Source: a virus. Taken from it: a stretch of 64,000 bases of DNA. The notes below the pieces were generated by a model. The model did not search any database. It was not told the DNA's origin and saw nothing but the letters and a program-made list of their open reading frames with translations. The DNA lies in the IMG/VR virus record IMGVR_UViG_3300010396_000006, positions 1 through 64,000 of that record, one strand, 5' to 3'. A program made the position numbers and the translations under genes. This document shows positions 46,159-58,900 of this stretch, piece after piece (the stretch's first letter is position 1; each line of letters starts with the position of its first letter).

Positions 46159-46250
46159 ACCTGAAAAGGTCCGACACAGAACTCCTGAAAAGGACTTCGC
46201 CAAAGAACTCCCGAAACGGACTTCAACAGCAAGGGAACTCCAGAAATGGA
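46159..46250 (+). repeat. four GAAA-loop mini-hairpin repeats in the terS leader
   Basis: ACCT-GAAA-AGGT, GAAC-TCCT-GAAA-AGGA-CTTC, GAAC-TCCC-GAAA-CGGA-CTTC, GAAC-TCCA-GAAA-TGGA. Confidence 0.8.
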
Positions 46251-47073
46251 GGATAAGCTATCGTCTGCGGAGCGAAGGAAGCTCAGAAGGCAGTTAAAGG
46301 AACAAGGCGAATCAATACCCGCTGACCTAACGCCTAAGCCCAATCGTAAAGCCCATCTGGATAAACTCCCCAATACGGAAACAAAGACACCGAAGACGGA
46401 GAGTAAACCAAGGGGCCAAGCGAAGCCAAAGCCCAAAGCGAAAGCCAAGCCCAAGCCAAGAAAGACTGAGACAACACCGGCCGGTAATGAATCAGTCGAT
46501 CAACAGAACGAGACGGAACAACCCAAGCCAGTCACGGTAGAAGCGGTCCCCGCTCCCGAGTCTGAAATCTCACCCGAATCTGTGTCGGGGGGATGGGGGG
46601 ACGGTGGCAAATATGGTCCATCTGGTCTGACGAAAACGCACGAACAGCGGATGGTTGTCAGTTCATTCAATTGGCAAAACCGCAATCGATTCCCGCTGGA
46701 AAAGGCTGTTGACGAAAACCTGAAGATCGTTGATGCGGTTGATGGCAAGTCGGATGTCTATCAGGAAATCCTGACCACGACTGTCGAGATGATGAGATCG
46801 AAGTCGGCGAGGTCAAAGGGCATTGGATTGCGGGCCGGCGTTCAACTCGTGACGGCCGTGCAAAAAGACGACCATGCCAAGTTGAGGGCTGAACTGCGTC
46901 CGATGGTATTCACTCCTCCCTCCCCTGCGCCAGAGATGCCGGCTCCCGCAGTTCCGGCCCATGTCGACCAAAGCATGAACATCGATAACAGCCATCGCGT
47001 CGTGATCTTCAACATTCCGGATAACGGACGAGATCCACAATTGAAGGCGCAATTGACTGGGGCCGCTCAATGA
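46246..47073 (+). CDS. putative terminase small subunit
   Basis: Overlaps terL start; Lys/Pro-rich N-terminus; C-terminal VVIFNIPDNGRD as in many TerS proteins. Confidence 0.6.
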   Translation: MEDKLSSAERRKLRRQLKEQGESIPADLTPKPNRKAHLDKLPNTETKTPKTESKPRGQAKPKPKAKAKPKPRKTETTPAGNESVDQQNETEQPKPVTVEAVPAPESEISPESVSGGWGDGGKYGPSGLTKTHEQRMVVSSFNWQNRNRFPLEKAVDENLKIVDAVDGKSDVYQEILTTTVEMMRSKSARSKGIGLRAGVQLVTAVQKDDHAKLRAELRPMVFTPPSPAPEMPAPAVPAHVDQSMNIDNSHRVVIFNIPDNGRDPQLKAQLTGAAQ

Positions 47074-48797
47074 GTTCCGTTCTCGAACAGTACGGACCAA
47101 ATGCGACGATCGTAGGACCGCAACCGGGTCCCCAGACTCAGGCCATGCAGAGCGCTGCCGATATCGTGATCATGGGTGGGGCGAACGGAGGGGGCAAATC
47201 GCATTGGATTCTGCTCGAAGCAGCGCGTCATGCCCGAGTGCCAGGATATCGAGCTGTCGTGTTCCGGCGTGAATCGACTGATATCACTGACCCCGGCGGA
47301 CTCCAAGATACGTCGATGACGATCTATCCCCAGCTTGATGGATGGTTCCGATCCAACAAACTGGATTGGATATTCGATCCGGATGCTCGCATTTCATTCC
47401 GAGGACTGCCGCACGCCAAGGATGCTATCTCGTGGGATGGAAAAGAACTGGCGTTCATCGGCTTTGATGAATTGCAATTGTTCACCGAATTTCAATTCTG
47501 GTATCTGTTCAGCCGCATGAGGTCCAGTTGCGGCGTCAACCCCGTTATTCGAGCGACATGCAATCCCGTTCATGAGGAAGATCCGACCGGCGGATGGTTG
47601 AAGATCCTGATTGGCTGGTGGCTCAACTGGGAAACCGGGTTTCCAATTCCAGAGCGATCCGGGAAAGTGCGATGGTTCGTGCGGTTGAACAATGAACTTC
47701 ACTGGGGCGATTCCCGCGAAGAACTGATTGAGCGATTCACCGATCCGGACAGTAAAGAGGAAGGCCCAACCGTCTTTCCGATGTCGATCACGTTCATCCC
47801 GTCGAAGTTACGGGACAACCCGATACTGATGAACTCGTCGCCCCAGTATCGAGCCAGCTTGATGGCGTTGCCGGACTATCTGAAGAAACAGAAATACGAA
47901 GGCAACTGGAACGCGAAACTTCAGGCCGGAACATTCTTCAAGATTGGTGTGATGGGCCGCAAAGGTCAGATCATTCCGATAGAGGAACTGCCGGCGATCG
48001 GCCTACGTTATTGCCGTGCCTGGGATCTGGCATACACGGAAGGGGCTGGAGACTGGACCGTTGGTGACTTATTGGCGACTGATGGGAAAGGAACATTTTA
48101 TCTCATTGATCAAGTTCGTGGACAATGGGAATCAAGCAATCGCAATGATCGAATGTTGGCAGTCGCCGCTGACGATGAAGAGAAATACGGTCGAGTCAAG
48201 ATCTGCGTTCCACAAGATCCATCGGCCGGAACTGAAATTTGTGAGCGACTGCTGAAAATGTTTGCCGGTTATTGGGTTGTCGGTCGAAGGCCAATCAAGA
48301 ACAAGGCAGAGCGAGCGTCGGCTTATTCGTCGTCATTCAATGGCGGAAATGTGAAGTTCGTCAAAGCGCCATGGAATTCCGGATTGCTTCAACGAATGGA
48401 TTCATTCCCGACGAAAGATATCCCAGATGATGAGATTGACGCATCTGCGGACGCCTATGAAGAACTCAGAGGCCCATCGCCTGGGGGAGCAATGGCTGAT
48501 CAAAGTGCCGTTGCCAACCCGACAGAGAAGGAAAACGTCAATCCGTTCCGCGGGTTGCTGGAAAGCTATGTTCGCGAATTCTGGTCGACCATGTCGAAGA
48601 ATGAACCAACCTGTCCCGAGTGGAAGGGATCGTTGGCAAGATTCGTTGATGATGTCGGTGAGCGCCCAAGCGACGATCACAAACTCGCAAGACGCGATCG
48701 CAACGAACTATGGGGTCCAGCAAACTTCTACTGGCAACTGGGCGATGAACCGCCTCCACCGATCAAAAGAGGCTGGGGCAAGGCAATGGCGGATTGA
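47070..48797 (+). CDS. terL: terminase large subunit with C-terminal extension
   Basis: PQPGPQ, GGANGGGKS (Walker A), FIGFDEL (Walker B), RATCNP, AWDLA and DDEIDA nuclease acids. Confidence 0.95.
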   Translation: MSSVLEQYGPNATIVGPQPGPQTQAMQSAADIVIMGGANGGGKSHWILLEAARHARVPGYRAVVFRRESTDITDPGGLQDTSMTIYPQLDGWFRSNKLDWIFDPDARISFRGLPHAKDAISWDGKELAFIGFDELQLFTEFQFWYLFSRMRSSCGVNPVIRATCNPVHEEDPTGGWLKILIGWWLNWETGFPIPERSGKVRWFVRLNNELHWGDSREELIERFTDPDSKEEGPTVFPMSITFIPSKLRDNPILMNSSPQYRASLMALPDYLKKQKYEGNWNAKLQAGTFFKIGVMGRKGQIIPIEELPAIGLRYCRAWDLAYTEGAGDWTVGDLLATDGKGTFYLIDQVRGQWESSNRNDRMLAVAADDEEKYGRVKICVPQDPSAGTEICERLLKMFAGYWVVGRRPIKNKAERASAYSSSFNGGNVKFVKAPWNSGLLQRMDSFPTKDIPDDEIDASADAYEELRGPSPGGAMADQSAVANPTEKENVNPFRGLLESYVREFWSTMSKNEPTCPEWKGSLARFVDDVGERPSDDHKLARRDRNELWGPANFYWQLGDEPPPPIKRGWGKAMAD

Positions 48798-48822
48798 CAA
48801 CGAAAATCTTTATGATTACCGT
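48794..48822 (+). promoter_or_regulatory. sigma70-like promoter with operator palindrome in spacer
   Basis: TTGACA 48794-48799, 17 bp, TACCGT; AAATC-TTTAT-GATTA 48804-48818. Confidence 0.65.
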
Positions 48823-48857
48823 TGACGCCGTTCAGTTTCACCTCAAAGGGTTGCGGC

Positions 48858-49475
48858 ATGACAGGCGAAGAATACGACTTTGCTGATCGAGCGCTCAGTT
48901 TCATGGGCCGTTTGGATGCGTTACAAGCCGCTCAGTCGGAATGGTCTCAGCGAACATTCGGGTCAGATGAGAAGAGAGGTCCCCGCGGCCCGTTGCTTCA
49001 TCTCGCCAAGGAGGCCGACGAAGCCGCTCAAGAGGAGGTCGGATCGGCCAAGCAACTGAAGGAATTCGGAGACGTATTCCTGTTGACCCTTGAGTCATTC
49101 CGGCGCGGAAAAAGAACGATCGATGAAGTTCTGGAAGCCGCAATTGCGAAGCATGCCGAAAACAGGCTTCGCGTATGGAATGTGATCGATGCGGAAGAAC
49201 CAATCTTCCACAAGAAAGAACCGTCGTTTCGGATCAAGCCACTCGAATGGCAGGATTCTCAGTTCGACGTCAATCTTAAAAGAGCCGAAACGATATTTGG
49301 ATTCTATTGGGTGCAATACAATCCGATGTTTGAAACCGATTTCGCCTGGGGATTTCATTTCCACGATTTCACCGATGAAGAACAGCACTGTTGCATGTCG
49401 TTTGATCAGGGTAAGCAACTCGCCTGGGAGAACTGGCAGGAACGAATCAAAAGCGCATTGATCGAGGCCGAGTGA
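48858..49475 (+). CDS. DUF550 / MazG-like dNTP pyrophosphohydrolase domain protein
   Basis: EWSQRTFG...GPRGPLLHLAKEADE...EFGDVFLL...KHAENRLRVW. Confidence 0.8.
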   Translation: MTGEEYDFADRALSFMGRLDALQAAQSEWSQRTFGSDEKRGPRGPLLHLAKEADEAAQEEVGSAKQLKEFGDVFLLTLESFRRGKRTIDEVLEAAIAKHAENRLRVWNVIDAEEPIFHKKEPSFRIKPLEWQDSQFDVNLKRAETIFGFYWVQYNPMFETDFAWGFHFHDFTDEEQHCCMSFDQGKQLAWENWQERIKSALIEAE

Positions 49476-51456: not shown

Positions 51457-51512
51457 GCCAATTAACCGATTGTTGGGCAATCGGACTTGATAGACGCGGC
51501 TTGTCTGTGTCG

Positions 51513-51559
51513 GCCTGTCGTAATACTGCCCAACGGTATTGCGACAGGCTTTTTCTTTT
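51513..51559 (+). terminator. intrinsic terminator/attenuator in leader
   Basis: 16-bp stem GCCTGTCGTAATACTG/CGGTATTGCGACAGGC followed by TTTTCTTTT. Confidence 0.75.
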
Positions 51560-51576: not shown

Positions 51577-53325
51577 ATGACAGTCTATGGCAGTGTGTGC
51601 GTGAGTGTTCCAACCGGTCCATCGTCAACGAAAAGCTTCTCGTTTGGGGTCCCAGGCGAGATCGTGGATCGGATGTGTGCAAGACCGGATATTGAATGGG
51701 AACCCCAATTCAAGGCGATGGTCAACAAGGCAATCAACGGGCCACCGATCGAATCAGACAATAAGGAAGAACTGAAACCGCCATTCGTTTCCGGCCAGAA
51801 AGTGATCTGCGTTCTGAACAGCAAAAATCTCGGCGGATTGACTGTCGGTGAGGAATATACGATCTGGAGATGCTTGAAGGACTCGATGATGTCGAGCGGC
51901 TTCAAATGCGAACTCAAGGAAAAGATGGTGGGCCAGATGTATTGTGCATCGCTGTTCAAAGCGAAGTCGGAGTCTGGAAAACTGTCAAACGATGAACCAC
52001 CATTCCAAGTCGGCGATCATGTTGAGATGCTCAAAGAGAGAGATCAAAAACCAACCGGGGTTGCCAGTCTCGTAGTTACGGGCGTTCGTTCACCGGAGCA
52101 GATGGCGGGGCATTGGACGCTTCCAGGCGTCAAGGCAAACGAAGGTGAGTGGTTTGTGTCGTGCGATCCAAAATGCACTGCATGGGGACCGGCAGGATAT
52201 TTTCGCAAGGCGTTCTTACCGCCATTCGCAGTCGGTGAGGAAGTGTTGGCGAATTACAACTTTTGGTCTGACTTGAATACGCTGGCTTCTGCAATCCAGA
52301 TCCACGAGAACAAGCCATATCGAATTAGAGCAATCCAAAAGGAAGTCGACTGCAATTCCGGTTGGAAAGTCTGGGTGGAAGGACAGCAAGGCGGTTGCGA
52401 TGCGTCGAAGTTCAGGAAGATGGATTCAATCGGAGAACAAATACGAAAGTCGCTCGAAGGAACATATCGCAATGCCCAGGAACTTATTGATTTTGAAGTC
52501 GGCCATGAAGCGGCAATTGCGAGAACGAACTATTTCGCATATCACGGACCGTTCGAAAGCGGCGATTTGCGATGGGGCCAAGTCAATATTGGCGAAAGAC
52601 GTCGATGGTTGAACGCCGCGAAAGCTGTCGAAGCAATCGTGAAAGATTGTGACGAATTTCGTATCGCCAATTCGATCGAAGAACTGATCCAGCAGAACAG
52701 CGGACCGGAAGATCTGAACCTCGAAGCTGGCGTGAACAAACTGGAACTGGCGTTGCAGTGGGTGAAAGATCGGATTGTCCACGAAAAGGCGAAGATCGCA
52801 CCGCAACCGTTCCAAGTCGGAGAAGTAGTTCAGGCTGTTGAAAACGTGATGAGCGGAAACGGAAAAGGAACTGTCGCCGCTGGTTGTCATATCAAAGTAT
52901 CGGCCTGCGAACGACGCAACCCTGATATCTGTCCTTCAGGCTGGATCGTGTATGCCGAAGATTGTGACCACTGGGGCGGATTCGATTCAGCGAAGTTCAA
53001 GAAAGATCCGATTGTTAATCCGGTCTCGACAGATCAATGGAAATTGCCCAATTCAGGGACTGTCAAATTCAGTCCCATCATTAATCCAAAACCAGGACAG
53101 ATCCCCATCTACAGGGGTGATGGTCAAGTTGAATGGATTGATCTTCCGAAAGATCAAACAAGATCGATAGCGTGGGAATACAGAGTAACTCCATGTCTGG
53201 ATGTCATTGATGAAGGATTTGATTCTGGCGTTGTCGACAGATTGAATAACAGCGGTGAAATCGGCTGGGAATTTGTAGCGTTCACTCCTATGACAGGACG
53301 AGCCGTATTCAAGCGCAGGAAGTGA
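51577..53325 (+). CDS. protein with four SH3/KOW-like repeats and DUF4177-like C-terminus
   Basis: PPFVSGQKV, PPFQVGDHV, PPFAVGEEV, QPFQVGEVV; WEYRV...LNNSGEIGWEFV. Confidence 0.75.
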   Translation: MTVYGSVCVSVPTGPSSTKSFSFGVPGEIVDRMCARPDIEWEPQFKAMVNKAINGPPIESDNKEELKPPFVSGQKVICVLNSKNLGGLTVGEEYTIWRCLKDSMMSSGFKCELKEKMVGQMYCASLFKAKSESGKLSNDEPPFQVGDHVEMLKERDQKPTGVASLVVTGVRSPEQMAGHWTLPGVKANEGEWFVSCDPKCTAWGPAGYFRKAFLPPFAVGEEVLANYNFWSDLNTLASAIQIHENKPYRIRAIQKEVDCNSGWKVWVEGQQGGCDASKFRKMDSIGEQIRKSLEGTYRNAQELIDFEVGHEAAIARTNYFAYHGPFESGDLRWGQVNIGERRRWLNAAKAVEAIVKDCDEFRIANSIEELIQQNSGPEDLNLEAGVNKLELALQWVKDRIVHEKAKIAPQPFQVGEVVQAVENVMSGNGKGTVAAGCHIKVSACERRNPDICPSGWIVYAEDCDHWGGFDSAKFKKDPIVNPVSTDQWKLPNSGTVKFSPIINPKPGQIPIYRGDGQVEWIDLPKDQTRSIAWEYRVTPCLDVIDEGFDSGVVDRLNNSGEIGWEFVAFTPMTGRAVFKRRK

Positions 53326-53560: not shown

Positions 53561-53839
53561 ATGAGTTCCGAAGAACGCTACGCCATGCATGAGGATATGG
53601 CGGATAAAATCACCGATGCATGCGCCGAATTGTTCCCCGAAGATGGAATGTGTGCTGATGTTTTATTCGCGTTGCTGACGGCTGCGTCATGGGGAGCGTT
53701 ATTTCTCATTGATATGCCGCCGGATCAAAAACAAAGGTTCGTTAATAACGGCGTCGTGCCGGAACTCGTTGCCACCGCTTCATGTGCGATACGAGAACGA
53801 TTAGAAAAGATGCGTGTTGCTGACAATAGCCGAAACTAA
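53561..53839 (+). CDS. hypothetical protein
   Basis: 92-aa ORF in operon. Confidence 0.6.
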   Translation: MSSEERYAMHEDMADKITDACAELFPEDGMCADVLFALLTAASWGALFLIDMPPDQKQRFVNNGVVPELVATASCAIRERLEKMRVADNSRN

Positions 53840-53854
53840 ATGAGGAGTGAATTA

Positions 53855-54574
53855 ATGGGAACGCAAGTTTGGAATGTGGCATCGCTGCTCGTCATGACGT
53901 CTATGTTCATTGGCTTGGCGACAATGCTCTATCGAGCATTCCGTCATCAACCGGACGTGAAGACTCCAGAAGATCCATACGGATTCGGTTGCAAGCCAAC
54001 GCCGATTCAATTGAGAGTCCTGAAATCAACGGCTGACATCGTGATCTATTGCGGGCCTGCTGGATCTGGAAAGAGCATGCTGATGCGAATGGCCGCAATG
54101 ATGCGAGCCAGGTTGTATCCGTCACAGCCTATCCTCACGTTCTGGTTTCAGCAGCGAGAAACGTGGGAAATGTTGGACAAGCACATTCCGTCAATTCGCG
54201 TGATCGGCCTCAAAGGCATCAATGAGGCTTGTGATCAATTTGCGGGAGTTGCGGCCCACACGATTTGCATCGACGGGATTGACTGGATCAGGGAAGAGTC
54301 GTTCTGGTTTCTGCTGTCGCGGTTGCGATCGAACGATTCGAACGTCAATCCGCAAATGTTCTGCTCAATGGATCGTCTTACAGATCCAAAGCCGCTATGG
54401 CTCGCAAAGCTGGTGAAGCATTGGGAGGAACCAGCAGACGGAATCGGCATTCGTGGAAAGCGGAATGGAATCCGTCACTTCCAAAGGATTGACGGCAATT
54501 TGCATCTTGTGGATATCACAAAGCATGATGCGTTGCTCAGCAAGCCGATCTCGATCGAATACATCCAAGGATGA
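53855..54574 (+). CDS. membrane-anchored degenerate paralogue of the terminase ATPase domain
   Basis: GAGGAG RBS; N-terminal TM; STADIVIYCGPAGSGKS and FWFLLSRLRS align with TerL SAADIVIMGGANGGGKS and FWYLFSRMRS; no nuclease domain. Confidence 0.8.
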   Translation: MGTQVWNVASLLVMTSMFIGLATMLYRAFRHQPDVKTPEDPYGFGCKPTPIQLRVLKSTADIVIYCGPAGSGKSMLMRMAAMMRARLYPSQPILTFWFQQRETWEMLDKHIPSIRVIGLKGINEACDQFAGVAAHTICIDGIDWIREESFWFLLSRLRSNDSNVNPQMFCSMDRLTDPKPLWLAKLVKHWEEPADGIGIRGKRNGIRHFQRIDGNLHLVDITKHDALLSKPISIEYIQG

Positions 54575-54981: not shown

Positions 54982-55059
54982 TCGTTACCGGTCCGTGAAT
55001 GGGTAATTGTGCCGCCAAGTTTTAAATACTCCTACGAATGTTCAAGAAAGGCTGATTTG

Positions 55060-55536
55060 ATGCCGGAGAATTTGACGATCGAGCAGAAGGCCACTAACAA
55101 CGACACATTCCGCCACATTGAACGGGTGAGAAATCTGATCAATACTTGCGTGACGGATCTACTTCGACGGGGAGAAAGACACGATCAAACGAAACTGGAA
55201 TCACCAGAGGTTGAACTGTTCACAGAATTCACGCCAAAGTTGGCTGAGTGTACTTACGGAAGCGCCGAGTACGAGGGATTCCGGAAAGCAATGGGGCCGG
55301 CGCTCGCTCACCACTATGCGAACAATTCGCACCATCCAGAGCATTGGAAGAATGGCATTGACGACATGAGCCTGCTGGACATTGTCGAAATGTTGTGTGA
55401 CTGGAAAGCAGCGAGTGAACGCCATAACGATGGAAACATCCGGAAGTCGATCACGATCAATGCCGACCGATTCAAGATGTCGCCGCAGTTGGTGAAGATT
55501 CTGGAAAACACAGCCGACTTGCTGTTCTCAGATTGA
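55060..55536 (+). CDS. HD-like phosphohydrolase (DUF5662 family)
   Basis: HIERV...HDQTK...HHYANNSHHPEH...EMLCDW. Confidence 0.8.
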   Translation: MPENLTIEQKATNNDTFRHIERVRNLINTCVTDLLRRGERHDQTKLESPEVELFTEFTPKLAECTYGSAEYEGFRKAMGPALAHHYANNSHHPEHWKNGIDDMSLLDIVEMLCDWKAASERHNDGNIRKSITINADRFKMSPQLVKILENTADLLFSD

Positions 55537-55594: not shown

Positions 55595-55888
55595 GTGAAT
55601 TCAAGACCATTGGCCGATCAGGTGATCATCAAGCGAGATGACGCCGAAAAAGTGACTCAGGGAGGAATCCACCTGCCGGATCGAGCGCAGAACGTCCCGC
55701 GAAAAGGAACTGTCCTCGCCGCAGGACCTGGGCGACTTCTGGACAACGGAACCCGCGGAGAAATGGAACTGAAAGCCGGGGATCGAGTCTATTTCTCAGC
55801 TTACGGCGTTCAGGAAGTGGAGATTGACGACGAAAAAGTCATCATCTGCCGGGAGGCGGATGTGTTAGCGGTGATCGAATCTGAGTGA
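55595..55888 (+). CDS. groES: co-chaperonin GroES
   Basis: PLADQVII...TQGGIHLP...GTVLAAGPG...KAGDRV...EADVLAVI. Confidence 0.95.
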   Translation: MNSRPLADQVIIKRDDAEKVTQGGIHLPDRAQNVPRKGTVLAAGPGRLLDNGTRGEMELKAGDRVYFSAYGVQEVEIDDEKVIICREADVLAVIESE

Positions 55889-55925: not shown

Positions 55926-55968
55926 AGGCTGAGTTGACTATTTTGTTGACTCAGCCTCTTTCGTTTTC
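55926..55968 (+). terminator. intrinsic terminator-like hairpin
   Basis: AGGCTGAGTTGAC/GTTGACTCAGCCT followed by CTTTCGTTTT. Confidence 0.65.
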
Positions 55969-55976
55969 AGGCAAGG

Positions 55977-58900
55977 ATGTCACAAATCATGAGCCGACGC
56001 CGCAACCGCAACCGTCGCGTTGAGAACTATCGCAAGAATTCGGATCGGGTTGTTGAGCATCCAAATGTTCCGGCCCCCGAACTGAACGACTCCCAAATCA
56101 AGTCGATGGCGTCTCAGATGCGGGCGGCTCTGGCCGGAAGCTTCGGCGGCGCTCAAGTCACGAATCACCGCGAAGAAGCTCTCCACTATGAGGGCAATAG
56201 CTACGTCAATATCGCGGCCATCTGCGCCCAAATGATGATGGTGACGATAACAGCCTATGTCGACGGATCGAACCAGCTTCGACAGCAGTCGGTCCGGAAG
56301 TCGCTGCGAGGTCTCGTCGGAAGCCGATGGAAGTCTCAATATGGGGTTGATGAGGCATCGTCGAAGCAACTCGAATCAGACCATTACCTGATGCGATTGC
56401 TGTCGAAGCCAAATCCGCACGAACCGGGCAGCATGTTCCGGTATCGGCAAACTCTTCAACTCAGGCTCACTGGAGGTGCGTTCCTGTGGAACGTCCCAAA
56501 TATCAACGGCCGGACGTGCGAACGGTACGTCATCCCCACCACATGCCTGACGCCGGTCTATCCAGACAACACGTTGCCGTACGGTGGTTATCGCGTTCAA
56601 CCAAACTGTATGCGATGGATTCCACTGGTTGACGATGGATTCGTGATCGGGACCCCGGCCCTGATGCGAGTGTTGGGCATGATCATTGATGCCCGAGAAA
56701 TCCAAAAGGTTGGCTATCCACATCCGATCTGGCTGGATGACTTCCAAAGCCCGATGTCTGCTGGCGCTCAGTGGGTCGATGCCGAACGATCGATCAACAT
56801 CGCACGGGCAATGGGCATCAGCCGCGGCATGAATCCGAGCGGTTTCCTTGAACTATCCAAAGAATACATGGGCATCGAACAAGATGCGCTGAACATCACT
56901 CAGCGGAAACTCGATCGACAATATGGCGGCGTCAACAACACGGGCAAGGTCATTGCCGTGGCTCCCGATACCAAGTTCACCGGATACGATCGAAGCCCGA
57001 AAGACATGGAATACCATGAAGGGTACTTGGATCACCGGGAAGCGAATCAGTCTCTACACGGCGTTCATCCGATCATCACTGGCGGACAGCCCCCCGGCGC
57101 ATACGCGGCCTACTACGCCGCCATGCGAGCATTCGACAACAACACGTTGACTCCCATTTGTGACATGCTGGCGGAATCAGACACGTTCCACATTGCACCG
57201 CAATTCGGCGAAGGGATCACGATCGAGATCGAGCCAAAGCCGATCAACGATGAGGACGAACTGAATTCACGTCTCCAGGTCGATGGTCAATTGGGGATCA
57301 TCAAGGTCAATGAAGCGCGAGCATTGCGAGGAATGCCGCCATTGGACGGAGCGCAAGGAGAAAAGCTGTGCGGACCGACTTCAAAGGATAAGGTTGGTCA
57401 GGATCAAGACAGCGACAATCCATCCAAGCCGAAGAAACCAAAGCAGTCTGGCGATGCGCCGTCAACTCCCGAGGTCCAAGAAGCCGAACAAGCGGACGTC
57501 CCCAAGGCTCCCGAAAATCCCATCGTCGGCAAGAGTGAATCAAAATCACTTCAAGCCGCAATGGAAGGGATGAAGGAGGCGGACGAAGACTACATTCAAG
57601 AAATAGTTGCCAAGGCGTTGGATTCGCGACTGAAGGCGATGCAACCTGCCGAGAAGCCAAAGCGGAAGTATTCCTCGACGCAGTTTGATCTGCCTGCCGG
57701 TCTCGCCGAAAAAGTGCAGGAGATGGCAGCCCTGATCAATCCGGCCGATCTCGCATCGGATGGAATCGAAGAAAATCCGCACGTGACTTGCTTGTACGGG
57801 CTGACCGAAGAATCACCCAATGATGTCAAGAAAGCCGTCAAGGGAATCTCGGCCGGTCCGATCGTTCTTGAATCGCTGTCGTTGTTCCCGGCTGGTGACA
57901 AGCTTGCTCAGCATGGCGGCGAACAGTTCGACGTTTTGAAGATCAGCATCGGCGGAAAGTTCATTCACGAGATTCACAATGCGATCGCAGAATCGTGCGA
58001 GTATGAAACCGATTATGCCGACTATTCTCCTCACTGTACGATCGCCTACTTGAAGCCGGGAAAAGGCCGCAAGTATGTGACGATGAACAATCCAGTGGAT
58101 GGGATGACGTTCATTCCTGACAAGCTGATCTTCAGTAGCAAAAACCGAACGGTCTCGGCAATTCGATTGAGCGTTCTGAAATCAGTCGAAGAACAACCAT
58201 CAGAAGCTCAGATTACTGCCGGCAATTACAAAAAAGATCACATCACAATTCAGGGGCTAAGGATCTCAATCGAAAATCCGAAAGGATCTGTTCGAAGTGG
58301 TCGTGACGATGATGGCAATGAGTGGTCAACGAAAATGCGGAATGATTACGGCTACATCAAAGGAACGAAATCAGATTCCGATGGTGATCACATTGATGTC
58401 TTCGTTGGGCCAAATCCAAGTTCAGAATTGGTGTTCGTAATTGATCAGGTCAATCCGCAAAGCGGGCAACATGACGAACACAAATGCATGTTGGGATTCG
58501 ATTCGAAAGATCAAGCGAAGTCTGCCTATCTCGAAAACTATTCCAAGGGTTGGAAAGGCTTCGGCGGCATTACTCCAATGCACATGGATCAATTCAAGGA
58601 ATGGCTAGACAGCGGAGATTCATCAAAAGGAATCGCGAGAAAATCTCTCACGGCAGCATTCTCCGAATCAGAAATGAAGGGCCACAATCCAATCAGCGAC
58701 ATCCAAGCCATTGGAAAGAGACTCGCTGAATCCGATTGTGGAATGCCCGGATACGGTCAGATCTTTATCAAGGAAAACGGATCTGGCCAAGCATGGTATG
58801 TCGGTGGCGACGGAGATGAACGAGGATTCGATAAGACTGTCATTCAAGAACTGAAGAAAGTCACGGGGATTGACGAAGTTCGTTATGAGTCTGAATCGTT

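What the first reader, a model, noticed from the sequence alone, without database searches (positions are those of the whole stretch)
53855..54574. Membrane-anchored, catalytically degenerate copy of the terminase ATPase domain (possible decoy)
Seen: colinear similarity to this phage's TerL ATPase domain (ADIVI..G..G.GKS; FW.L.SR.RS...VNP; WL..L...W; R.F.R....LH; P.SI..I). Walker B DE has become DG, ATCNP has become CSMDR, the nuclease domain is absent, and an N-terminal TM helix and a strong RBS are present. Known: Avs1-3 STAND defence proteins sense the large terminase. Inference: a decoy that sequesters terminase sensors at the membrane, or a dominant-negative inhibitor of competing phage packaging.
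Basis: partly seen in the sequence, partly recalled or inferred. Interest (0 to 1): 0.8.

Follow-up and report, generated by a model that had tools for sequence, protein, structure and literature searches.

The report
Membrane-anchored dead copy of terminase ATPase
An uncultured 106-kb phage carries, besides its normal DNA-packaging enzyme, a short membrane-anchored relative of that enzyme's motor domain that has lost its catalytic residues yet is conserved in a second virus; the object is real and unusual, but the proposed immune-decoy role is untested.

Summary
ORF 53855-54574 (+, 239 aa; 244 aa from the ATG at 53840) is a true homologue of the large terminase (TerL) ATPase domain. It matches phrog_979 at E 1.3e-15, the resident TerL (47070-48797) at 28% identity and E 5e-14, and a TerL-only profile at E 1.8e-29.

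It keeps the Q motif, Walker A and the Walker B Asp. It has lost the catalytic Glu (now Gly), the coupling motif N-P (now D-R), a ~30-residue segment carrying an Arg invariant in 42/42 TerLs, the lid and the nuclease domain. An N-terminal hydrophobic helix and a GAGGAG ribosome-binding site are present.

It is not neutral decay. Among 1.84 billion representative proteins there is one real relative, P0004 (42-46% identity, E 1.7e-39). P0004 has the same N-terminal anchor, the same D-G, the same deletion and the same truncation.

The feature is very rare: 0 of about 87 related phage contigs carry a second TerL-like ORF.

I read it as a selected, probably nucleotide-binding but hydrolysis-dead pseudo-terminase tethered to the cytoplasmic face of the membrane. 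It most likely acts by competitive mimicry of TerL. The Avs-decoy and dominant-negative ideas remain untested. The scan noted this same stretch twice before in overlapping windows, without follow-up.

The parts
53842..53847 (+). Shine-Dalgarno GAGGAG, 7 nt upstream of the ATG at 53855
   Evidence: Read directly from the sequence. The database gene call also starts at this ATG (P0003, 239 aa).
53855..54574 (+). Pseudo-terminase CDS, 239 aa (the alternative in-frame ATG at 53840 gives 244 aa = P0002; residue numbers in this report use the 244-aa form)
   Evidence: ORF list; phrog_979 E 1.3e-15; BLASTP to TerL E 5e-14; AF2 pLDDT 81; best structural match D6E TerL, Z 11.8.
53876..53932 (+). N-terminal hydrophobic helix (residues 13-31), predicted single-pass anchor with the C-terminal domain in the cytoplasm
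   Evidence: KD-19 score 1.87; AF2 helix 13-35; basic residues follow the helix in both P0002 and P0004. The topology is inferred.
54008..54010 (+). Q57, retained Q-motif glutamine upstream of Walker A
   Evidence: Q in 41/42 TerLs and in all four short proteins.
54053..54076 (+). Walker A, G-P-A-G-S-G-K-S (residues 72-79), intact
   Evidence: P0004 has G-K-H-M-V-G-K-T.
54260..54277 (+). Walker B strand T-I-C-I-D-G: the Asp is kept, the catalytic Glu is replaced by Gly (codon GGG)
   Evidence: The same D-G is in P0004.
54359..54376 (+). Degenerate coupling (C) motif F-C-S-M-D-R in place of R-A-T-x-N-P
   Evidence: Column counts: N 42/42, P 41/42, R 31/42 in TerLs.
47070..48797 (+). The phage's functional TerL (575 aa, ATPase + RNaseH-like nuclease + C-terminal extension)
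   Evidence: phrog_979 E 1.5e-121; Terminase_6N and 6C above the Pfam cut-offs.
51512..51550 (+). Strong terminator-like hairpin (17 bp stem + T run) that closes the preceding unit; the operon holding the pseudo-terminase begins after it
53561..53839 (+). Upstream 92-aa ORF; its stop codon abuts the 53840 ATG and it contains a hydrophobic stretch; no family match
55926..55957 (+). Terminator-like hairpin after the GroES gene (55595-55888), closing the operon just before the portal gene at 55977
   Evidence: Cpn10 E 5.3e-28; portal phrog_2662 E 4.4e-29.

Best explanation
The gene encodes a selected pseudo-enzyme. It is a single-pass membrane protein whose cytoplasmic domain is a stripped-down TerL ATPase core. 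It keeps the elements that hold a nucleotide: the Q motif, the Walker A Gly-Lys-Ser and the Walker B Asp. It lacks the elements that hydrolyse ATP and pass the signal on: the catalytic Glu, the coupling motif N-P, the Arg-bearing loop after strand 2 and the lid. It also lacks the nuclease domain. Shown here: the homology, the fold, the motif losses, the hydrophobic N-terminus, conservation of this whole architecture in a second virus, and rarity. Inferred: it binds ATP without turning it over, sits on the inner face of the membrane, and works non-catalytically as a TerL look-alike. In that role it would compete for something that recognises the TerL ATPase core. The most probable target is a TerL-directed factor of the host or of a competing element, such as an Avs-type sensor. 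Because it offers only the ATPase-core epitope, it could occupy such a factor without completing activation. My odds: selected pseudo-ATPase of TerL origin about 0.85; competitive-mimic mode of action about 0.3; Avs specifically about 0.12.
For: Homology: and ESM Atlas features 0.95 with TM 0.68-0.70 to TerL clusters. Fold: AF2 pLDDT 81; VIA-align top hits are TerLs (D6E Z 11.8, P74-26 Z 11.4, Sf6 10.7, HK97 10.6), and the PhiV-1 TerL chain of the Avs3 complex 8dgc scores Z 9.9. Motif retention and loss were counted against 42 TerLs. Selection: P0004 is 42-46% identical (E 1.7e-39) and both ORFs are intact. P0004 has the same N-terminal hydrophobic helix (KD 2.55), the same D-G, the same ~30-aa deletion, the same N-to-D change in the C motif and the same truncation point. 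The two form a clade (SH-aLRT 99) on a stem of 2.99 substitutions per site, which indicates an early burst of change followed by retention. GC, GC3 and in-frame codon usage match the genome. Accessory character: the gene lies in a terminator-bracketed operon of lineage-specific genes between TerL and portal. It is absent from about 87 related contigs (1.18 Mb) and from 10 whole related records.
Against: There is no experimental or in-silico evidence for any binding partner. For Avs proteins, ligand binding is what activates them, and a small protein with weak TerL-ATPase-like structure (Ksap2) triggers KpAvs2 (PMC11564622), so a mimic might be a liability. Described anti-Avs proteins work otherwise. 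The host, and whether it has Avs, was not established. P0004's Walker A interior is bulky (K-H-M-V), so nucleotide binding is not assured. Only two family members are known, so conservation statistics are thin, and dN/dS could not be computed because no DNA was available for P0004.
Confidence: 0.3

Rival explanations
1. Morphogenetic helper. A membrane tether would bind the portal, prohead or packaging complex through surfaces inherited from TerL. It would nucleate or hold head assembly or packaging at the membrane, or block premature TerL docking. This would be analogous in role to T4 gp40, which assists the membrane-bound portal initiator (from my own knowledge of T4, not tested here).
For: Same operon as a GroES co-chaperonin and immediately upstream of the portal gene. 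Lineage-specific morphogenesis would explain the absence from smaller relatives.
Against: In many phages the portal is bound by the TerL C-terminus or nuclease domain, which is missing here (general knowledge). The other operon genes (Zn ribbon, DUF5662, a 582-aa repeat protein) are not morphogenetic families. No partner was predicted.
Confidence: 0.2
2. A neofunctionalised nucleotide-binding membrane protein whose present role has nothing to do with terminase partners. Examples would be superinfection exclusion, a nucleotide-sensing switch or a membrane remodelling factor. Only the P-loop scaffold would be reused.
For: The very long stem branch (2.99 subs/site) shows wholesale change after the split from TerLs. 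The gene sits in an accessory island. The nucleotide-binding motifs are the best-kept part.
Against: Family-specific TerL surface motifs outside the P-loop are also kept (F-W-x-L-x-S-R-x-R/K-S, W187, W195, and the G-I-R-x-F hairpin). This suggests that TerL-like surfaces still matter.
Confidence: 0.2
3. Dominant-negative subunit. It would enter terminase rings, either of competing phages or of this phage as a timing brake, and stall them, as Walker B Glu mutants do in ring ATPases.
For: Walker A intact with the catalytic Glu lost is the classic trap configuration.
Against: The lid subdomain and the Arg-bearing loop are deleted; by general knowledge of P74-26-type TerL rings these make the inter-subunit contacts. 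It is only 28% identical to the resident TerL and equally distant from foreign TerLs, so no target specificity is evident. Membrane tethering is hard to reconcile with a ring seated on a portal.
Confidence: 0.08
4. A decaying remnant of a duplicated or acquired TerL gene, with no function.
For: Catalytic motifs are lost and the gene is truncated. Only two members are known, so it could be a short-lived lineage feature.
Against: Two lineages at about 44% identity both keep an open frame, the same added N-terminal anchor, the same motif set and the same end point. The gene has a strong SD and genome-typical codon usage in frame. A random 240-codon frame stays open with probability of about 1e-5.
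Confidence: 0.05

Closest known systems
Large terminase ATPase domain of the Terminase_6N / phrog_979 type (solved examples: D6E 5oe8, P74-26 4zni, Sf6 gp2 4idh, HK97 6z6d)
   Same: Sequence homology (E 1e-15 to 1e-29), the same ASCE core fold (Z 10.6-11.8), the Q motif, Walker A, the Walker B Asp, and family-specific S-R-x-R-S and Trp motifs.
   Different: No catalytic Glu, no N-P coupling motif, no invariant Arg loop, no lid, no nuclease domain, and an added N-terminal membrane anchor. It does not reach any Pfam terminase model.
Ksap2 (Bas60_220), a small phage protein with weak structural similarity to the D6E TerL ATPase domain that binds and activates KpAvs2 (Bechon et al. 2024, PMC11564622)
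   Same: A small phage-encoded protein that resembles the TerL ATPase domain, lacks the nuclease domain, and is restricted to a narrow phage group.
   Different: Ksap2 shows no sequence homology to TerL and is a trigger of immunity, not an inhibitor. No membrane anchor is reported. Its relationship to the present protein was not tested because I held no sequence for it.
Known anti-Avs proteins ORF55 (DNA ligase) and ORF83 (DprA/Smf-like) of phage DruSM1, as summarised in the EVADES preprint 10.1101/2025.06.06.658234
   Same: They would share a target system if the decoy idea were right.
   Different: They have unrelated folds and, as predicted there, act downstream (repairing damage) or by nucleotide binding rather than by mimicking the sensed protein.
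Paralogous decoys of pathogens, e.g. Phytophthora PsXLP1, a truncated inactive paralogue that shields the active PsXEG1 from a host inhibitor (from my own knowledge, not checked here)
   Same: The logic: a truncated, catalytically dead paralogue of the pathogen's own targeted enzyme.
   Different: A eukaryotic pathogen with secreted proteins and experimentally shown binding. Nothing comparable is shown here.

Membership tests
Functional large terminase (TerL, Terminase_6N + 6C) | Sequence homology to the TerL ATPase domain | tested here: met
   phrog_979 E 1.3e-15; TerL-only profile E 1.8e-29; BLASTP to the resident TerL E 5e-14. No Pfam terminase model is reached.
Functional large terminase (TerL, Terminase_6N + 6C) | Walker A P-loop G-x4-G-K-[ST] | tested here: met
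   G72...G77-K78-S79.
Functional large terminase (TerL, Terminase_6N + 6C) | Walker B with a catalytic glutamate (D-E, or the D-Q-x-E variant) | tested here: not met
   D145-G146. TerLs have E in 35 of 42 and D-Q-x-E in 7 of 42. P0004 has D-G-L-N, with no acidic residue at +1 to +3.
Functional large terminase (TerL, Terminase_6N + 6C) | Coupling (C) motif T-x-N-P | tested here: not met
   S-M-D-R. N is 42/42 and P 41/42 in TerLs.
Functional large terminase (TerL, Terminase_6N + 6C) | Invariant Arg after strand 2 (the 'F-R-R' segment), and the lid subdomain | tested here: not met
   The segment is deleted in P0002 and P0004 (R is 42/42 in TerLs). The protein ends before the lid.
Functional large terminase (TerL, Terminase_6N + 6C) | C-terminal RNaseH-like nuclease domain | tested here: not met
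   The ORF ends at residue 244. The downstream ORFs have no nuclease match. Only one nuclease domain is present in the genome.
Anti-defence decoy against terminase-sensing Avs1-3 | Binds the Avs sensor domain | not testable with these tools
   No Avs sequence of the (unknown) host was available. The model superposes on the TerL chain of the Avs3-TerL complex 8dgc at Z 9.9, which shows only a shared fold.
Anti-defence decoy against terminase-sensing Avs1-3 | Suppresses rather than triggers Avs activation by the real TerL | not testable with these tools
   This needs co-expression toxicity assays. The literature precedent, Ksap2, is a trigger.
Anti-defence decoy against terminase-sensing Avs1-3 | Under selection, not neutral decay | tested here: met
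   The conserved relative P0004 has the same architecture. dN/dS was not computable.
Single-pass (signal-anchor) membrane protein | One hydrophobic segment of about 19 or more residues, with basic residues on the cytoplasmic flank | tested here: met
   KD-19 scores of 1.87 (P0002) and 2.55 (P0004) at the N-terminus. R/K follow the helix in both. AF2 models helix 13-35. Insertion itself was not tested.

The most novel reading that the evidence does not exclude
A phage protects its own essential packaging enzyme from fold-recognising immune receptors (Avs1-3 type) with a self-mimic. This would be a membrane-tethered, ATP-binding but dead TerL ATPase core that occupies the sensor without offering the second (nuclease-domain) epitope, so it acts as a competitive antagonist. 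To my knowledge it would be the first 'paralogous decoy' described in phage-bacterium conflict.
Probability: 0.12. Interest if true: 0.85.

Novelty: new variant of a known kind. Interest (0 to 1): 0.5.

Why it matters
Terminase is one of the few phage proteins that bacterial pattern-recognition receptors sense by fold, and phages cannot easily mutate it. A conserved, catalytically dead, membrane-anchored copy of just the sensed ATPase core is a concrete, clonable candidate for a new escape route: self-mimicry. If that is wrong, it could instead be a new kind of packaging or assembly regulator. Either way it is a clean example of a viral pseudo-enzyme derived from a hallmark gene. Its value is limited by rarity (two known members) and by the lack of any functional evidence.

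Tried and rejected
- **Context of the only real relative, P0004 (and of P0007, P0008):** Scans of viral contigs, metagenome contigs and genome contigs with P0002, P0004, P0007, P0008 or their alignment found nothing relevant. The two metagenome hits were ordinary full-length TerLs. P0004 sits on a 1,622-bp Logan contig. Synteny and dN/dS were therefore not obtainable.
- **Complex prediction:** Complex prediction with TerL residues 1-295, the C-terminal part of the ORF upstream of TerL (a TerS candidate), and the pseudo-terminase soluble domain as partner returned 'no answer' (score 0.00). This is no evidence either way.
- **Structure and sequence searches:** Foldseek against the PDB returned only generic RecA/KaiC P-loop folds at TM about 0.33, probably disturbed by the long N-terminal helix; VIA-align was needed to see the TerLs. 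phmmer against PDB sequences gave nothing useful. PADLOC gave no defence-system match. The phage GenBank collection gave no tblastn hit.
- **Split terminase:** rejected, because there is no second nuclease domain and no intron or intein signs.
- **P0007 and P0008 as members of the same family:** not supported. They lack the anchor, sit on separate long branches, and P0007's D-Q-L-E matches a natural TerL Walker B variant.
- **Origin by duplication of the resident TerL:** neither shown nor rejected. The constrained tree is not worse (p-AU 0.81), and BLAST scores to own and foreign TerLs are equal.

Full report
**What is there.** The window belongs to a complete 105,647-bp IMG/VR virus record with direct terminal repeats. 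ORF 53840-54574 (+) encodes 244 aa (P0002). The likelier start is the ATG at 53855 (239 aa), because GAGGAG lies 7 nt upstream and the public gene call starts there (P0003). The phage's functional large terminase is 47070-48797 (575 aa). It matches phrog_979 at E 1.5e-121 and both Terminase_6N and Terminase_6C above the Pfam cut-offs. The portal, fused to a long polyprotein, starts at 55977 (phrog_2662, E 4.4e-29).

**Checking the observation.**
- The short ORF aligns colinearly with TerL residues 16-214 at 28% identity, E 5e-14. The final strand (P-I-S-I-E-Y-I against P-M-S-I-T-F-I) aligns as well.
- It matches phrog_979 at E 1.3e-15.
- A profile built only from full-length TerLs finds it at E 1.8e-29 among all window ORFs. 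This is far beyond chance.
- No Pfam terminase model is reached; only generic P-loop families appear, below their cut-offs.
- An AF2 model built on a 46-sequence alignment has mean pLDDT 81.
- VIA-align ranks TerL structures at or near the top: D6E Z 11.8, P74-26 11.4, Sf6 10.7 and HK97 10.6. These are tied with SF1/SF2 helicases, which share the ASCE core.
- The ESM Atlas gives TerL clusters both by features (0.95) and by structure (TM 0.68-0.70).

**Motifs, counted against 42 full-length TerLs.**
- Kept: Q57 (Q in 41/42), the Walker A G-x4-G-K-S, the Walker B Asp (42/42), and the S-R-x-R-S, W187, W195 and R212 positions.
- Lost:
  - The catalytic Glu is Gly146. TerLs have E in 35 cases and the D-Q-x-E variant in 7.
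  - The coupling motif N-P (42/42 and 41/42) is D-R.
  - R174 (31/42) is F.
  - A ~30-residue segment after strand 2 is deleted. It carries an Arg found in 42/42 TerLs, a second Arg or Lys, and a G-G pair.
- The protein stops before the lid subdomain, and there is no nuclease domain anywhere else in the genome.
- The N-terminus carries a 19-residue hydrophobic window scoring 1.87 on the Kyte-Doolittle scale. TerL's maximum is 0.64. AF2 models this stretch as a helix, residues 13-35. Basic residues follow it, which suggests an N-out, C-in anchor; this topology is an inference.

**Is it decaying or selected?**
- An exhaustive HMMER scan of 1.84 billion representative proteins found one true relative, P0004 (270 aa, E 1.7e-39). 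All other hits are ordinary TerLs at E above 1e-8, plus two unrelated short proteins.
- P0004 is 42-46% identical. It has an even more hydrophobic N-terminal helix (KD 2.55), the same D-G at Walker B, the same ~30-residue deletion, N-to-D in the C motif, an intact G-x4-G-K-T and the same end point.
- The two form a clade with SH-aLRT 99 on a stem of 2.99 substitutions per site. The median TerL tip branch is 0.78. This fits a burst of change after the split from catalytic TerLs, followed by retention.
- Two lineages this far apart would not keep open frames and an added anchor under neutrality.
- GC, GC3 and in-frame codon usage match the rest of the genome.
- dN/dS could not be computed.

**Origin.** The ORF scores the same against the resident TerL (57.8 bits) and a foreign TerL, P0022 (57.0 bits). 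An AU test does not reject a clade of P0002 + P0004 + resident TerL (p 0.81). The constrained tree was in fact better than the quick free search. Descent from this phage lineage's own TerL is therefore allowed but not demonstrated.

**How common is it?**
- A profile search of about 87 phage contigs of the same TerL family (1.18 Mb, up to 10 kb on each side of TerL) found no second TerL-like ORF.
- Whole-record searches of 15 related records found matches only inside the single TerL frame.
- A profile of the two members found no further member among 5.8 billion clusters.
- P0007 (215 aa) and P0008 (314 aa) are other short TerL-N-like proteins with altered motifs. They have no anchor, sit on separate long branches, and no context could be obtained for them.

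**Genomic setting.** Terminator-like hairpins at 51512-51550 and 55926-55957 bracket a co-directional set of genes:
- a 582-aa protein with four P-P-F-x-V-G repeats;
- a Zn-ribbon protein;
- a 92-aa ORF whose stop codon abuts the pseudo-terminase;
- the pseudo-terminase itself;
- a 118-aa ORF;
- a DUF5662 protein;
- a bona fide GroES (Cpn10, E 5.3e-28).

This roughly 7-kb block, together with a dATP/dGTP-pyrophosphohydrolase-like gene after TerL, separates TerL from portal and consists of accessory, lineage-specific genes.

**Mechanism.**
- What is shown is a conserved, anchored TerL ATPase core that keeps nucleotide-holding residues and lacks hydrolysis, coupling, inter-subunit and nuclease elements.
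- I infer a non-catalytic, probably ATP-binding TerL look-alike on the cytoplasmic face of the membrane, acting by competition for a factor that recognises the TerL ATPase core.
- A host or competitor factor directed at TerL is the leading candidate for that factor. The gene is accessory and fast-evolved, and it preserves exactly the part of TerL that Avs sensors are reported to contact. KpAvs2 is predicted to bind the TerL ATPase domain (PMC11564622). The model also superposes on the TerL chain of the Avs3 complex 8dgc, which shows only a shared fold.
- Against the decoy idea: binding activates Avs, Ksap2 (with weak TerL-ATPase-like structure) is a trigger, and known anti-Avs proteins are not mimics.
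- Ring poisoning is unlikely, because the lid and the Arg loop are gone.
- A morphogenetic tether, suggested by the GroES and portal neighbours, and an unrelated new function both remain live.
- One complex prediction gave no answer and counts for nothing.

**Verdict.** The object is a genuine, selected pseudo-terminase with a membrane anchor, and I found no description of such a family in the literature searches. Its function is open and the decoy reading is possible but unsupported. I score interest as moderate (0.5). It is unusual and directly testable, but it is known from only two sequences and has no functional evidence.

Noticed in passing
window 51577-53325 (+): A 582-aa ORF with no Pfam or PHROG match carries four spaced repeats of a P-P-F-x-V-G-x-x-V motif (possibly SH3- or Tudor-like small barrels). 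It is the first gene of the operon that holds the pseudo-terminase.
   Followed up: no
window 48600-48797 (+), TerL residues ~515-555: The functional TerL has a C-terminal extension beyond the nuclease domain with a weak match to an HNH-endonuclease PHROG (phrog_3377, E 1.4e-4).
   Followed up: no
window 46246-47073 (+): The ORF overlapping the TerL start by 4 nt (275 aa) has a Lys/Pro-rich low-complexity N-terminal half and no family match. By position it is a small-terminase candidate, but this is unverified.
   Followed up: partly
window 48822-49475, 55009-55536, 55595-55888 (+): Between TerL and portal lie a dATP/dGTP pyrophosphohydrolase-like gene (PF04447, E 4.7e-8), a DUF5662 protein (E 7.5e-38) and a true GroES/Cpn10 (E 5.3e-28). 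This is an unusually large accessory block splitting the packaging genes.
   Followed up: partly
alignment A3 (proteins P0006, P0009, P0022, P0024, P0038, P0041, P0056): Seven of 42 full-length TerLs of this family have D-Q-x-E instead of D-E at Walker B. The acidic residue appears shifted by two positions, which looks like a natural variant of the catalytic motif.
   Followed up: partly
proteins P0007 (215 aa, Logan) and P0008 (314 aa, ENA): Two other short, nuclease-less TerL-N-like proteins from metagenomes have altered Walker B or C motifs (D-Q-L-E-D with S-P; D-N-L-T-D with H-D) and no membrane anchor. They may be independent pseudo-terminases or gene fragments; their contigs could not be fetched.
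   Followed up: partly
window 53561-53839 (+): The 92-aa ORF directly upstream (stop TAA immediately before the 53840 ATG) contains a ~17-residue hydrophobic stretch (V-L-F-A-L-L-T-A-A-S-W-G-A-L-F-L-I). It could be a second small membrane protein made together with the pseudo-terminase.
   Followed up: no
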